Positions 24,996 to 38,900 of a stretch of DNA of 64,000 bases are shown in pieces (within the stretch, counting starts at the first letter, position 1; each line of letters begins with the position of its first letter). The notes under the pieces were generated by a model. The model saw nothing but the letters and a program-made list of their open reading frames with translations, was not told the origin of the DNA and made no database searches. The translations under genes and the position numbers were made by a program. This stretch comes from the human T2T-CHM13v2.0 reference genome, Homo sapiens, in NCBI RefSeq assembly GCF_009914755.1, contig NC_060929.1. One strand, 5' to 3'.

Positions 24996-27900
24996 TTTTT
25001 TTTTTTTTATAATTTAAGTTCTGGGATACATGTGCAGAACGTGCAGGTTTGTTAAATAGGTATACATGTGCCATGGTGGTTTGCTCCACCCATCAACCCA
25101 TCATCTACATTAGGTATTTCTCCTAATGTTATCCCTCCCATTGTCCCCCACCCCCAAACAGGACCTGGTGTGTGATGTTCCCCTCCCTGTGCCGTGCATT
25201 CTGATTGTTCAACTCTCATTTATAAGCGAGAACATGTGGTGTTTGGTTTTCTGTTCTTGTGTTAGTTTGGTAAGAATGATGGTTTCCAGCTTTATCCATG
25301 TCCCTACAAAGGACATGAACTCATTCTTTTTTAGGGTATTCCATGGTGTATATGTGCCATGTCTTCTTTATCCAGTCTAACATTGATGGGCATTTGGGTT
25401 GGTTCCAAGTCCTTGCTATTGTGAACAGTGCTGCAATAAACATATGTGTGAGTGTGTCTTTATAGTAGCATGATTTATAATCCTTTGGATATATGCCCAG
25501 TAATGGGATTGCTGGGTCAAACAGTATTTCTGGTTCTAGATCCTTGAGGAATTGCCACACTGTCTTCCACAATGCTTTAATAATTTACTCTCCATCCACC
25601 AGTGTAAAAGCATTCCTATTTCTCCACATCCTCTCCAGCATCTGTTGTTTCCTGACTTTTTAATGAACACCATTCTAACTGGCATGAGATGGTATCTCAT
25701 TGTGATTTTGATTTGCATTTCTCTAAAGACCAGAGATGATGAGCATTTTTTCATATGTTTGTTAGCTGCATAAATGTGTTCTTTTGAGAAGTGTCTGTTC
25801 ATATCCTTCACCCACTTTTTGATGGGATTGTTTTTTTCTTGTAAATTTGTTTAAGTTATTTGTAGATTCTGGATATTAGCCCTTTGTCAGATGGATAGAT
25901 TGCAAAAATTTTCTCCCATTCTGTAGGTTGCCTGTTCACTCTGATGATAATTTCTTTTGTGGTGCAGAAGCTCTTTAGTTTAATTAGATCCCATTTTTCA
26001 ATTTTGGCTTTTGTTGCCATTGCTTTTGGTGTTTTAGTCATAAAGTCTTTGCCCATGCCTAAGTCCTGAATAGTATTGCCTAGGTTTTCTTCTAGGGTAT
26101 TTATGGTTTTAGGTCTTTAATCCATCTTGAGTTAATTTTTGCGTAATGTGTAAGGAAAGTGTCCAGTTTCAGTTTTCTGCATATGGCTAGCCAGTTTTCC
26201 CAACACCATTTATGAAATAGGAAATGTTTTCCCTATTGCTTGTTTTTGTCAGGTTTGTCAAAGATCAGATGGTTGTAGATGTGTGGTGTTATTTCTGAGG
26301 CCTCTGTTCTGTTCCATTGGTCTATATATCTGTTTTGATACAAGTACCATACTGTTGTAGTTACCGTAGCCTTGTAGTATAGTTTGAAGTCAGGTAGTGT
26401 GATGCCTCCAGCTTTGTTCTTTTTGCTGAGGATTGTCTTGGCTATGAGGGCTCTTTTTTTGGTTCCATATGAAATTTAAAGTAGTTTTTTCTAAGTCTGT
26501 GAAGAAAGTCACTGGTAGCTTGATGGGAATAGCGTTGAATCTATAAATTAGTTTGGGCAGTATGGCCATTTTCACGATACTGATTCTAACTATCCATGAG
26601 CATGGAATGTTTTTTTCTATTTGTTCGTGTCCTCTCTTATTTCCTTGAGCAGTGGTTTGTAGTTCTCCTTGAAGAGGTCCTTCACATCCTTTGTAAGTTG
26701 TATTCCTAGGTATTTAATACTCTTTGTAGCAATTGTGAATGTGAGTTTGCCTATGATTTGGCTCTCTGTTTGTCTGTTATTGGTGTATAGGAATGCATGT
26801 GATTTTTGCACATTGATTTTGTATTCTGAGGCTTTCCTGAAGTTGCTTATCAGCTGAAGGAGTTTTTGGGCTGAGATGATGGGGTTTTCTGGATATACAA
26901 TGATGTCATCTGCAAACAGAGACAATTTGACTTCCTCTTTTCCTATTTGAATACCCTTTATTTCTTTCTCTTGCCTGATTGCCCTGGCCAGAACTTCCAA
27001 CACTATGTTGAGTAGGAGTGGTGAGAGAGGGCATCCTTCTCTTATGCAAAGGGAATGCTTCCAGCTTTTGCTCATTCAGTATGATATTGGCTGTGGGTTT
27101 GTCATAAATAGCTTGTATTATTTTTTCAGATATGTTCCATCAATACCTATTTTATTGAGAGTTTTTTAGCATGAAGGGGCATTGAATTTTATCGAAGGCC
27201 TTTTCTGCATCTATTGAGATAATCATGCGGTTTTTGTCATTGGTTCTTTTTATGTGATGGATTATGTTTACTGATTTAGGTATGTTGAACCAGCCTTGCA
27301 TTCCAGGGATGGAGCCGACTTGATTGTGGTAGATAAGCATTTTGATGTGCTGCTGCATTCGGCTTGCCAGTAGTTTATTGAGGATTTTCGCATTGATATT
27401 CATAAGGGATATTGGCCTGAAATTTCCTTTTTCTGTTGTGTCTCCGCCAGGTTTTGGTATCAGGGTGATGCTGGCCTCATAAAATGAGTTAGGGAGGAGT
27501 CCCTCTTTTTCTGTTGTTTGGAGTAGTTTCAGAAGGAATGGTACCAGCTCCTCTTTGTACCTCTGGTAGAATTAGGCTGTGAATCCGTCTGATCCTGGGC
27601 TTTTTTTGGTTGATAGGCTATTAATTACTGCCTCAGTTTCAGAACTTGTTATTGGTCTATTCAGGAATTTGAATTTTTCCTGGTTTAGCCTTCAGAGAGT
27701 GTATTTGTCTAGGAAATTATCCATTTCTTCTAGATTTTCTAGTTTATTTGTATAGAGGTGTTTATAGTATTCTCTGATGGTAGTTTGTATTTCTGTGGGA
27801 TTGGTGGTGATCTCCTCTTTATCATTTTTTATTGCATGTATTTGATTCTTTTCTGTTTTCTTCTTTATTATTCTGGCTAGCAGTCCATCTATTTTGTTAA

Positions 27901-35900: not shown

Positions 35901-38900
35901 TGTCTTCTTCAGTTCTGCTCTGATCTTAGTTACTTCTTGTCTTGTGCTAGCTTTTGAATTTGTTTTCTCTTGCTTCTCTAGTTCTTTTAATTGTGATGTT
36001 AAGGTGTCAATTTTAGATCTTTCCTGCTTTCTTCTGTGGGCATTTTAGTGCTATAAATTTTTCTCTAAGCGCTGCTTTAGCTGTGTCCCAGAGATTCTGG
36101 TACATTGTATCTTTGTTCTCATTGGTTTCAAAGAACTAATTTATTTGTGCCTTAATTTTCGTTATTTACCCAGTGGTCATTCAGGAACAAGTTTTTCATT
36201 TTGCATGTAGTTGTGTGGTTTTGAGTTTCTTCATCCTGAGTTCTAATTTGTTTGCACTGTGATCTGAGAGACTGTTATGATTTCTGTTCTTTTGCATTTG
36301 CTGAGGAGTATTTTATTTCCAGTTATGTGGTCGATTTTAGGATAAGTGCTATGTGGTGCTGAGAAGAATGTATATGCTGTTGATTTGGGGTGGAGAGTTC
36401 TGTAGATGTCTATTAGGTCCACTTGGTCCAGAGCCGAGTTCAAGTCCTGAATATCCTTGTTAATTTTCTGTCTTGTTGATCTTTCTAATATTGACAGTGG
36501 GGTGTTAAAGTCTCCCACTATTATTGTGTGGGAGTCTAAGTCTCTTTGTAGGTCTCTAAGAACTTGCTTTATGAATCTAGGTGGTCCTGTATTGGGTGCA
36601 TATATATTTAGGAGTGTTAGCTCTTCTTGTTGCATTGATTCCCTTTACCATATGTAATGCCCTTCTTTGTCCTTTTGATCTTTGTTGGTTTAAAGTCTGT
36701 TTTATCAGAGACTAAAATTGCAACCCCTGATTTTTTGTTTTTTTGCTTTCCATTTGCTTGGTAATTATTCTTCCATCCCTTTATTTTGAGCCTATGTGTG
36801 TCTTTGCACGTGAGATGGGTCTCCTGAATACAGCACACCGATGGGTCTTGACTCTTTATCCAATTTACCAGTCTGTGTCTTTTAATTGGGGGCATTTAGC
36901 TCATTTAGATTTATGGTTAATATTGTTATATGTGAATTTGATCATGTCAGTATGATGCTAGCTGGTTATTTTGCTGGTTAGTTCATGCAGTTTCTTCATA
37001 GTGTCGACGGTCTTTACAATTTGATATGTTTTTGCAGTGGCTGGTACTGGTTTTTCCTTTCCGTATTTAGTGCTTACTTCAGGAGCTCTTGTAAGGCAGG
37101 CCTGGTGGTGACAAAATCTCTCAGCATTTGCTTGTCTGTAAAGGATTTTATTTCTCCTTCATTTATGAAGCTTAGTTTGGCTGGATATGAAATTCTGGGT
37201 TGAAAATTCTTTTCTTTAAGAATGTTGAATATTGGTCCCTACTCTCTTCTGGCTTGTAGGGTTTCTGCAGAGAGATCCACTGTTAGTCTGATGGGCTTCC
37301 CTTTGTGGGTACCCTGGCTGCCCTTAACATTTTTTCCTTCATTTCAGCCTTGGTGAAGCTGATGATTATATGTTGGGGTTGTTCTTCTCAAGGAGTTTCT
37401 TTGTGATATTCTCTGAATTTTCTGAATTTGAGTGTTGGCCTGTTTTGCTAGGTTGGGGACGTTCTCCTGGATAATATCCTGAAGAGTGTTTTCCAACTTG
37501 GTTCCATTCTTCCCGTCAGTTTCAGGTACACCAATCAATGTAGGTTTGATCTTTTCACATAGTCCCATATTTCTTGGAGGCTTTGTTCATTCCTTTTCAT
37601 TCTTTTTCTCTAATCTTGTCTTCATGCTTCATTTCATTAAGTTGATCTTCAATCTCTGATATCCTTTCTTCCGCTTGATTGATTCAGCTATTGGTACTTA
37701 TGTATGCTGCTTGAAGTTCTCATGCTGTGTTTTTCAGCTCCATCAGGTCATTTGTGTTCTTCTCTAAACTCGTTATTTTAGTTAGCAATTCCTCTACCCA
37801 TTTTTCAAGGTTCTTAGGTTCCTTGCATTGATTTAGAACATGTTCCTTTGGCTTGGGGAAATTTGTTCTTACCCACCTTTTGAGGCCTTCTTCTGTAAAT
37901 TCATCAAACTCATTCTCCATCAAGTTTTGTTCCCTTGCTGGCAAGCAGTTGTGATCCTTGAGAGGAGAAGAGGCATTCTGGTTTTTGGAATTTTTAGCCT
38001 TTTTGTACTGGTTTTTCCTCATGTTCGTGGATTTATCTACCTTTGGTCTTTGCTGTTGGTGACCTTCAAATGTCGTTTTTGCATGGTCATCCTTTTTGTT
38101 GATATTGATGCTATGTTCCTTTCTGTTTCTTACTGTCCTTCTAACAGTCAAGCCCGTCTGCTGTAGGTCTGCGGGAGTTTGCTGAGGGTCCACTCCATAC
38201 CCTGTTTTCCTGGTTATCACCAGCGGAGGCTGCAGAACAGCAAAGATTGCTGCCTGCTTTTTCTCTGGAAGTTTCTTCTCAGAGGGCCACCTGTCAGATG
38301 CCAGCCAGAGCTCTCCTGTATGAGGTATCTGTCGACCCCTGCTGGGAAGTGCCTCCCAGTGAGGAGGCACGGGGGTCAAGGAGCCACTTAAGGAGGCAGT
38401 CTGTCTCTTAGCAGAGCTCGAGTGCTGTGCTGGGAGATCCGCTTCTCTCTTCAGAGAGCTGACAGGCAGGAACGTTTAAATCTGCTGAAGCTTCGCCCAC
38501 TGCCACCTCTTCCCCCAGGTGTTCTGTCCCAGAGAGATGGGAGTTTTGTCTCTAAGCCCCTCACTGGGCTTATAGTTAAGCTGCCTTTCTTTCACAGATG
38601 CCCTGCCCAGAGAGGAGGAATCCAGAGAGGTAGTCTGGCTAGAGTGTCTTTGCTGAGCTGTGGTGGGCTTCACCCAATTTGAACTTCCCAGAGGCTTTGT
38701 TTATACTGTGAGGGGAAAATCACCTAGTCAAGACTCAGTAATGGTGGACGCCCCTGTCCCCAGCAAGCTTGAGTGTCCCAGGTTGACTTCAGACTGCTGT
38801 GCTGGGAGCGAGAATTTCAAGCCAGTGGATCTTAGCTTGCTGGGCTCCCCAGGGGTGGGATCTGCAGAGCTAAACCACTTGGCTCCCTGGCTTCAGCCCC

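What the first reader, a model, noticed from the sequence alone, without database searches (positions are those of the whole stretch)
25800..37290. Patchwork near-identity between the two L1 copies: ectopic gene conversion or duplicated core
Seen: 26620-27750 versus 34554-35692 differ, by my reading, at only about one substitution plus an 8-bp deletion at 27047 over ~1.1 kb; the ORF track gives identical peptides at 26669/34603 and 27152/35094. Other tracts (28400-28700 vs 36340-36640; 29100-29347 vs 37038-37284) are ~98-99% identical. The 27820-28400 tract, both 5'UTRs and both 3' ends are visibly more diverged (roughly 10%). Both copies share what appear to be private changes, such as the shortened TTTTAGGTCTTTA. 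Old L1PA7/8 copies should be uniformly diverged, so this mosaic implies repeated recent sequence transfer between direct repeats 7.94 kb apart.
Basis: partly seen in the sequence, partly recalled or inferred. Interest (0 to 1): 0.75.

Follow-up and report, generated by a model that had tools for sequence, protein, structure and literature searches.

The report
L1 pair homogenised inside compound insertion
Two old, broken LINE-1 jumping-gene copies 7.9 kb apart in a human ATG10 intron are nearly identical in their middles, likely through repeated gene conversion, and one target-site-like repeat brackets both copies plus a 1.4-kb piece that matches chromosome 1, so the whole 14.6-kb block likely began as one compound insertion.

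Summary
Observation confirmed. L1 A (24995-31494) and L1 B (32936-39371), both minus strand, differ by 12.7% at the 3' end and 18% in the 5'UTR, but by 2 of 1197 nt at 26619-27815, with intermediate tracts of 0.8, 3.3, 5.4 and 7.4%; 17 unrelated copies differ by 9-14%. The core holds 54 private changes shared by both copies and none unshared. Shared lesions (lost ORF2 start, four private stops, a 13-bp deletion) run from 26112 to 29013, so sequence moved after decay, several times, most recently at about 2% of the pair's age. No third donor was found. This is most likely ordinary non-allelic gene conversion (0.9). New here: neither copy shows its own target-site duplication; one 16-nt TSD (15/16) joins B's 5' end to A's 3' end. 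The spacer matches one chr1 locus (8.9% diverged) that has no L1 at either end. Best reading: B arrived with a 1.43-kb 3' transduction from a since-deleted chr1 source; A joined at its tail either later (0.40) or in the same event (read-through 0.25, RNA chimera 0.20). Primate orthologues would decide. Predicted substrate for a 7.94-kb intronic deletion.

The parts
24759..24774 (.). Outer target-site duplication, left copy (next to A's poly(A)/Alu)
   Evidence: 15 of 16 nt match 39369-39384; score 13 against at most 10 in 210 mismatched control pairs
24775..24994 (-). Alu-like copy with internal deletion, sitting in A's poly(A) tail (family name recalled)
24995..31494 (-). Full-length, inactivated L1 copy A (L1PA7-like by recall; 5' end of 'type 1' among relatives)
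25801..26618 (-). Graded older conversion tracts in A (4.2% then 0.8% from B); holds the shared 13-bp deletion at 26112
26619..27815 (-). Newest converted core in A (ORF2 region); 2 substitutions in 1197 nt and one 8-bp deletion against B 34553-35757
27816..28404 (-). Oldest or mixed tract (7.4% from B; 17 shared private changes)
28405..29347 (-). Intermediate-age tract (3.3% from B); includes the shared loss of the ORF2 start codon (29013) and the stop at codon 3
29348..29417 (.). 70-nt templated insertion found only in A: fold-back giving 44-nt hairpin arms plus an 18-nt inverted copy of 28814-28831; near the edge of the converted zone
   Evidence: (I18)
31495..32930 (-). Spacer, inferred 3' transduction of B; 31496-32801 matches G000:C1:49391077-49392359; ATTAAA at 31514-31509, 14 nt before A's first base
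32434..32828 (+). Solo MaLR-type LTR (name recalled) inside the spacer, complete with 5-nt TSD here, cut short on chr1
32936..39371 (-). Full-length, inactivated L1 copy B (5' part intermediate between the two relative types)
34553..35757 (-). Newest converted core in B
39369..39384 (.). Outer target-site duplication, right copy, overlapping B's 5' end by about 3 nt, next to an endonuclease-type CT/AAAA site

Best explanation
Two decayed full-length L1 copies in direct orientation share private mutations in tracts of very different divergence, most likely because they have exchanged sequence by non-allelic gene conversion several times, and they sit inside one TSD-like repeat with a chr1-matching spacer, likely because L1 B arrived with a 1.43-kb 3' transduction and L1 A joined at its tail. 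Shown: the identity mosaic, the shared lesions, no closer donor among the scored hits, the TSD-like pairing, the chr1 paralog, its empty site and its missing end. Inferred: (1) a source L1 on chr1 read through its own poly(A) signal into about 1.43 kb of flank and was reverse-transcribed into ATG10; (2) the chr1 source was later removed by a deletion that also took 129 nt of flank; (3) A was added at the end of the transduction (later insertion 0.40, read-through from a chr1 haplotype that also carried A 0.25, RNA/cDNA chimera 0.20); (4) breaks in one copy were repaired from the other 7.94 kb away, each event raising identity and favouring the next; duplication-then-deletion by unequal crossover would leave the same trace and is counted under this heading. 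Direction B to A is weakly suggested. No function is proposed: both copies are dead.
For: A-B divergence 0.2-7.4% over 25600-29347 against relative-relative means of 9.0-10.6%; core 54 shared private changes, 0 and 0 unshared. A and B are sisters with support 1.000, 0.999 and 1.000 in three inner tracts and not in the two flanks. Shared loss of the ORF2 start (15 of 17 relatives keep it), shared stops at codons 3, 272, 439, 926 seen in 0 relatives, shared private indels. The core's only near-identical hit is B (99%), next 90%, 40 of 14,886 candidates scored. TSD score 13 for B5'/A3' against 4-6 for the five other pairings and at most 10 in 210 mismatched controls. One full-length spacer paralog among 41 matches; it has no L1 at either end and no TSD or poly(A) of its own; non-CpG divergence 4.2% per lineage, similar to the elements' own decay of about 5%. 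Conversion rates are raised between Alu copies under 10 kb apart (PMC6598467, passage citing Aleshin and Zhi).
Against: No reads and no primate orthologues were available. 7 of 15 genuine copies failed the same TSD test, so the lack of A-A and B-B TSDs is weak on its own. About 3 nt of the right TSD copy could be L1-derived. No remnant of B or of the 129-nt piece was found in 40 kb of chr1 or in the genome search, so the chr1 source is inferred, not seen. The later-insertion route needs A's own second TSD to be lost or never made; none survives (best 11/17). chr1 reads ATTACA where chr5 has ATTAAA, so the poly(A) signal may not be ancestral. Direction rests on three sites, one a CpG.
Confidence: 0.8

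Rival explanations
1. One 14.4-kb retrotransposition: a chr1 haplotype carried both B and A, B's promoter read through spacer and A, and the whole RNA was copied to chr5; A was then lost from chr1 without fixing.
For: Predicts the outer TSD with no missing inner TSD; A's 5' junction lies 16-17 nt after a TT/AAAG endonuclease-type site, as an old TSD would; A and B carry equal private loads, 141 and 148 in 2615 unconverted sites.
Against: Needs a lost polymorphic A (chr1 is an empty site), read-through of four poly(A)-type signals in the spacer and full-length copying of 14.4 kb; no sibling of A with chr1 downstream flank.
Confidence: 0.25
2. One insertion from two RNAs: reverse transcription of A ran to its 5' end and then switched to (or had been ligated to) the 3' end of a B-plus-transduction RNA.
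For: Junction is 14 nt past ATTAAA, a usual cleavage distance (recalled); 17 TSD-bounded human L1 chimeras with 5' additions, mostly near-full-length, one from a locus lacking the L1 (preprint 10.1101/2025.02.02.635956, section 24).
Against: No poly(A) between spacer and A; no splice donor at the chr1 junction; the published examples I read add short exonic pieces (153 bp in one), not 7.9 kb.
Confidence: 0.2
3. Recombinational capture: a single L1 (B 5' half plus A 3' half, with the TSD) was broken and repaired from a chr1 L1-spacer-L1 template.
For: Explains the TSD without long reverse transcription; A's scar and B's 13-bp deletion lie about 26 nt apart in L1 coordinates; one 3' site (25325) has the older state in A.
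Against: Needs both L1s on chr1 plus a third L1; the scar has 1 mismatch in 62 templated nt, 5.5 expected at the spacer's age (p about 0.03); site 30990 pairs A5' with A3' instead; 3' trees are unresolved.
Confidence: 0.1
4. Assembly or polishing collapse made the core look identical.
For: No reads could be examined; the core is at about allelic-level identity.
Against: Shared private changes are interleaved with A/B differences over 25800-29347; the core keeps 2 SNVs and an 8-bp indel; the assembly graph was built from HiFi reads (about 20 kb, 0.1% error), with about 1 error per 10 Mb (PMC9186530 passages).
Confidence: 0.03
5. Two independent insertions from the same defective source, or one duplication of the core, with no later exchange.
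For: Both copies share the same best relatives.
Against: Tracts differ about 40-fold in divergence (0.17 to 7.4%); 54 shared private changes with 0 unshared cannot predate about 5% of independent decay.
Confidence: 0.02

Closest known systems
Non-allelic gene conversion between neighbouring transposon copies (Alu pairs under 10 kb; review PMC6598467, passages read)
   Same: Same-family copies under 10 kb apart, reduced divergence, mosaic of diagnostic sites, tree incongruence.
   Different: 6.5-kb L1 copies, kilobase tracts and at least four age layers in one pair; the passages read give Alu, LTR, Ty and Tf2 cases, not an L1 pair.
Interlocus gene conversion in segmental duplications (PMC10172114, passages read)
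   Same: Identity-dependent conversion; hotspots sit in the highest-identity stretches.
   Different: That study defines SDs as not consisting entirely of common repeats, so a pure L1 pair is outside its scope; this pair started near 87% identity, a range with few events there (325 in 66.1 Mb of SDs over 10% diverged).
L1 3' transduction (established knowledge; PMC156586 could not be read)
   Same: Full-length L1, poly(A), unique flank traceable to another chromosome, enclosed by a TSD.
   Different: Source element absent from the donor locus; the transduction ends on a second full-length L1 rather than on a poly(A) tail.
Chimeric L1 insertions with 5' additions (Law and Burns preprint 10.1101/2025.02.02.635956; abstract, sections 20 and 24 and passages read; supplements closed)
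   Same: TSD encloses a near-full-length L1 plus foreign 5' sequence whose donor locus has no L1; same doubt between a lost ancestral L1 and an RNA chimera.
   Different: Here the addition is a whole second L1 plus 1.43 kb of unspliced flank, with no splice donor at the joint. The main text does not mention ATG10, chr5 or L1PA7; its supplementary tables could list the locus and were not seen.
LINE-LINE NAHR substrates (PMC4344489, PMC9675761, passages read)
   Same: Direct full-length LINE pair; identity of 96-98% reported as needed; median full-length LINE-1 rearrangement 7,663 bp.
   Different: Whole-element identity here is below their filters; conversion has built a 1.6-kb, 99.5% core inside old copies. 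No deletion at this site was found in print by my searches.
chr11 tandem L1HS array (PMC13192797, section 10 read)
   Same: Neighbouring L1 units shaped by local recombination.
   Different: Young back-to-back array with copy-number variation; here two old copies, a transduced spacer and one TSD.

Membership tests
Non-allelic gene conversion between repeats | Tracts of identity far above the family background | tested here: met
   0.2-7.4% against 9.0-10.6% among relatives; run test 0/10,000
Non-allelic gene conversion between repeats | Shared post-insertion (private) mutations and local tree incongruence | tested here: met
Non-allelic gene conversion between repeats | Donor is the partner, not a third copy | tested here: met
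   next hit 90% (40 of 14,886 candidates scored)
Non-allelic gene conversion between repeats | Non-reciprocal transfer, as opposed to duplication followed by deletion | not testable with these tools
   needs population haplotypes or orthologues
Non-allelic gene conversion between repeats | Sequence confirmed by reads | not testable with these tools
   no reads held
L1 3' transduction | Unique sequence 3' of the L1 poly(A) maps to another locus | tested here: met
L1 3' transduction | TSD encloses L1 and transduced sequence | tested here: met
   (the TSD also encloses A and the Alu)
L1 3' transduction | Poly(A) tail directly after the transduced sequence | tested here: not met
   spacer runs straight into A's 5' end; so not a plain transduction
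L1 3' transduction | Source L1 at the donor locus | tested here: inconclusive
   absent, but chr1 lacks exactly the flank where it would sit
Chimeric (single-event) L1 insertion | One TSD, endonuclease-type site and poly(A) around both parts | tested here: met
Chimeric (single-event) L1 insertion | Both parts arrive together in the primate tree | not testable with these tools
   needs orthologues; equal private loads are only compatible
L1PA7/L1PA8 subfamily | Match to the subfamily's diagnostic 3' and 5' sites | not testable with these tools
   no repeat library; name recalled. L1 identity itself is shown by ORF2p and ORF1p matches, E 2e-87 and 2e-15
Segmental duplication / tandem duplication of L1 | Duplication extends into flanks; uniform divergence | tested here: not met
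   A-B alignment stops at the element ends; divergence is layered

The most novel reading that the evidence does not exclude
The whole 14.4-kb L1-spacer-L1 block was written into ATG10 in a single target-primed reverse transcription (a read-through of two L1s, or a two-RNA chimera). It thereby created its own direct-repeat substrate, which has evolved in concert ever since, into the human lineage, and now offers a 99.5%-identical core for 7.94-kb deletions whose product would pass for an ordinary single L1 with a perfect TSD.
Probability: 0.45. Interest if true: 0.65.

Novelty: new variant of a known kind. Interest (0 to 1): 0.45.

Why it matters
It is a clean, datable case of old L1 copies rebuilding a near-perfect recombination substrate: whole-element identity filters (over 95%) would miss it, yet a 1.6-kb core is 99.5% identical, so a 7.94-kb intronic ATG10 deletion/duplication is predicted, and short-read variant calls and divergence-based dating in the core are unreliable. 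The TSD and chr1 spacer show that two repeat-annotated L1s can be one compound insertion; if single-event, it would show the L1 machinery copying about 14 kb in the germ line. No effect on ATG10 is shown.

Tried and rejected
Third-copy donor: none. Sibling transductions: none for the spacer end or either chr1 flank. chr1 as the derived copy: rejected, no TSD or A/T run at its ends, and it could not explain the outer TSD. Remnant of the 129-nt piece in 40 kb of chr1: best 17 of 24 nt. A's or B's inner TSD elsewhere in the window: no convincing hit. Pairing 5' with 3' halves by diagnostic sites and trees: inconclusive, star-like trees and one discriminating 3' site. Scar as the founding junction: disfavoured by its youth. 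PRDM9-type 13-mer (recalled motif): 4 window matches, none in A, B or the spacer. Within-window controls: fragment 10472-11494 (87.6% and 86.0% to A and B) and the older L1 at 22001-24064 (75-78%) show no homogenisation. Rows left out: 3 of 20 fetched relatives were kept out of the alignment (L023 duplicates L022; L029 and L034 are rearranged; all three projected); the TSD control used 15 of 20; stop codons after ORF2 codon about 1065 were discarded because the column phase slipped; shared stops at codons 353 and 479 also occur in 7 and 1 relatives and were not counted as private. Relatives were best hits of the 5'UTRs, which biases them to short branches. Literature: 10 searches found no paper on this locus in the listings; PMC2950799 and PMC156586 were not held.
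Full report
Observation. Self-alignment of the window gives two direct, minus-strand L1 copies, A 24995-31494 and B 32936-39371, aligned in two blocks: 94.5% over 24995-29347 and 82.9% over 29418-31486. B's translation, read with X at stops, matches human ORF2p (E 2e-87) and ORF1p (E 2e-15). Change-point fitting gives 12.3% (24995-25800), 4.2% (25801-26226), 0.5% (26227-27815), 5.9% (27816-29825) and 17.5% beyond; a lower penalty splits the fourth block further. 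The longest identical run, 466 nt, was reached by 0 of 10,000 permutations.

Background and private changes. I took the best genome hits of both 5'UTRs, fetched 20 and aligned 17. Relatives differ from each other by 9.0-14.2% on average in every segment. A and B match that background in the flanks (12.7, 12.4, 18.0%) and fall far below it inside: 5.4, 0.8, 0.2, 7.4, 3.3%. In 26619-27815 there are 54 changes shared by A and B and seen in at most one relative, and none private to one copy; in the flanks shared changes are 0.5-0.7% and unshared 4.4-6.2%. A and B are sisters with support 1.000, 0.999 and 1.000 in the three inner tracts tested and not in the flanks. Both copies have lost the ORF2 start codon (15 of 17 relatives keep it), share stops at codons 3, 272, 439 and 926 found in no relative, and share private indels at 26112 (13 bp), 27121, 27162, 28214 and 28798. 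Such lesions arise after insertion, so sequence moved between the copies after decay. The core's only near-identical match is B (99%; next 90%; 40 of 14,886 candidates scored).

Timing. With the spacer's divergence from chr1 (113/1276, 8.86%) as the age of the insertion, tracts stand at 0.83 (27816-28404), 0.45, 0.37, 0.09 and 0.019 (0.002-0.068) of that age. With a recalled age of 30-40 million years for this L1 generation, the newest layer is about 0.7 million years old (roughly 0.1-2.5); a recalled human-chimp distance of 1.2% would give about 14 differences where 2 are seen. These absolute dates rest on recall. Three type-diagnostic sites in the converted zone carry the older state typical of B's 5' part in both copies, a weak hint of B-to-A transfer. 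Conversion and duplication-then-deletion cannot be separated on one haplotype. A 70-nt templated fold-back insertion in A (29348-29417) lies near the 5' edge of the zone; it looks younger than the insertion (1 mismatch in 62 templated nt, p about 0.03) and may limit tracts, which is untested.

The unexpected anatomy. Neither copy shows its own TSD (scores 4-6), whereas the 16 nt beside B's 5' end (39369-39384) match the 16 nt left of the Alu in A's poly(A) tail (24759-24774) at 15 of 16, score 13. In controls 8 of 15 true pairs scored 11 or more and 0 of 210 mismatched pairs did; a nearby L1 fragment shows its own 16-nt TSD. The site is of endonuclease type, CT/AAAA. The spacer has one full-length paralog among 41 matches, G000:C1:49391077-49392359, 90%. 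In 40 kb of chr1 no L1 abuts it. The match ends at A's first base, where chr1 runs on uninterrupted into single-copy sequence. At the other end chr1 lacks the last 129 nt, including the end of an LTR that is complete with its 5-nt TSD on chr5; so chr1 lost sequence after the copy was made, exactly where B's source would have stood. The chr1 segment has no TSD or poly(A) of its own. No sibling copies were found.

Mechanism. Most likely a chr1 L1 read through its poly(A) signal and inserted in ATG10 as B plus a 1.43-kb 3' transduction (inferred, about 0.85 for this shared step). How A joined is open. The 14 nt between ATTAAA and A's first base fit a transcript end; the same bases, read as TT/AAAG plus 16-17 nt, fit an L1 target site. 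Later insertion of A at the tail (0.40) needs A's second TSD lost or never made (none found; the Alu sits there). A single 14.4-kb read-through (0.25) needs an A allele lost from chr1. A two-RNA chimera (0.20) has precedent in TSD-bounded near-full-length L1s with 5' additions from loci lacking an L1 (preprint 10.1101/2025.02.02.635956, sections 20 and 24). Recombinational capture into one older L1 (0.10) was tested by pairing 5' and 3' diagnostic sites, without a clear result. Whatever the route, two related 6.5-kb direct repeats 7.94 kb apart then exchanged tracts repeatedly (0.9).

Comparison with what is known. Raised conversion between Alu copies under 10 kb apart is reviewed in PMC6598467 (passages). 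Conversion in segmental duplications favours high identity, and that study leaves out pure-repeat pairs (PMC10172114, passages). LINE-LINE NAHR needs about 96-98% identity (PMC4344489, passages) and full-length LINE-1 rearrangements have a median of 7,663 bp (PMC9675761, passages); the 1,586-nt, 99.5% core meets this, so a 7.94-kb deletion is predicted, not shown. Its product would be one hybrid L1 with an intact TSD. Assembly error is unlikely given the HiFi basis and stated accuracy (PMC9186530, passages) and the interleaving of shared and unshared changes, but no reads were seen. Ten full-text searches listed no paper on this locus; the library lacks most subscription papers, and the preprint's supplementary tables were not seen. 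Subfamily and repeat names (L1PA7/8, Alu, MaLR, MIR, SVA) are recalled.

Verdict. Real; the conversion is a strong new example of a known process, and the TSD-bounded L1-transduction-L1 structure is a variant I did not find described. Interest 0.45.

Noticed in passing
window 39509-43047: SVA-like element on the + strand (hexamer repeats from 39521, VNTR 39925-42513, poly(A) 43009-43039, TSD-like GAAAGTCGAG on both sides), starting about 140 nt from B's 5' end, head to head with it.
   Followed up: partly
window 29348-29455: Templated 70-nt insertion in A making 44-nt hairpin arms with an 8-nt loop, plus an 18-nt inverted copy of 28814-28831; B has a 13-bp deletion about 26 nt away in L1 coordinates.
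   Followed up: partly
window 10472-11494: 5'-truncated younger L1 fragment with an exact 16-nt TSD; overlaps or abuts an alternative ATG10 exon annotated at 11530-12122 within about 35 nt; not homogenised with A or B.
   Followed up: partly
window 22001-24230: Older L1 in two oppositely oriented pieces (22001-22893 and 22912-24064), the pattern of a 5'-inverted insertion; 75-78% to A and B.
   Followed up: no
window 24768-24994: Alu-like copy with an internal deletion inserted in A's poly(A); a second Alu in the opposite orientation lies at 24340-24639.
   Followed up: partly
L010 8077 (G000:C1:49391077): Deletion junction on chr1 that cuts the LTR end; may have removed the source L1.
   Followed up: partly
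L018/L019 (G000:C1:49386954-49387049 and about 49390512-49390608): A 96-nt stretch duplicated locally on chr1 at 94% identity, 3.5 kb apart.
   Followed up: no
L022 and L023 (G000:C23 and C24): Two fetched L1 relatives with the same layout and 5' flank on contigs 23 and 24, probably one shared X/Y region; one was left out of the alignment.
   Followed up: no
window 18986-19111 and 17349-18447: Short imperfect palindromic stretch at 19015-19111 and a 135-nt direct repeat (17349/18314, 91%).
   Followed up: no
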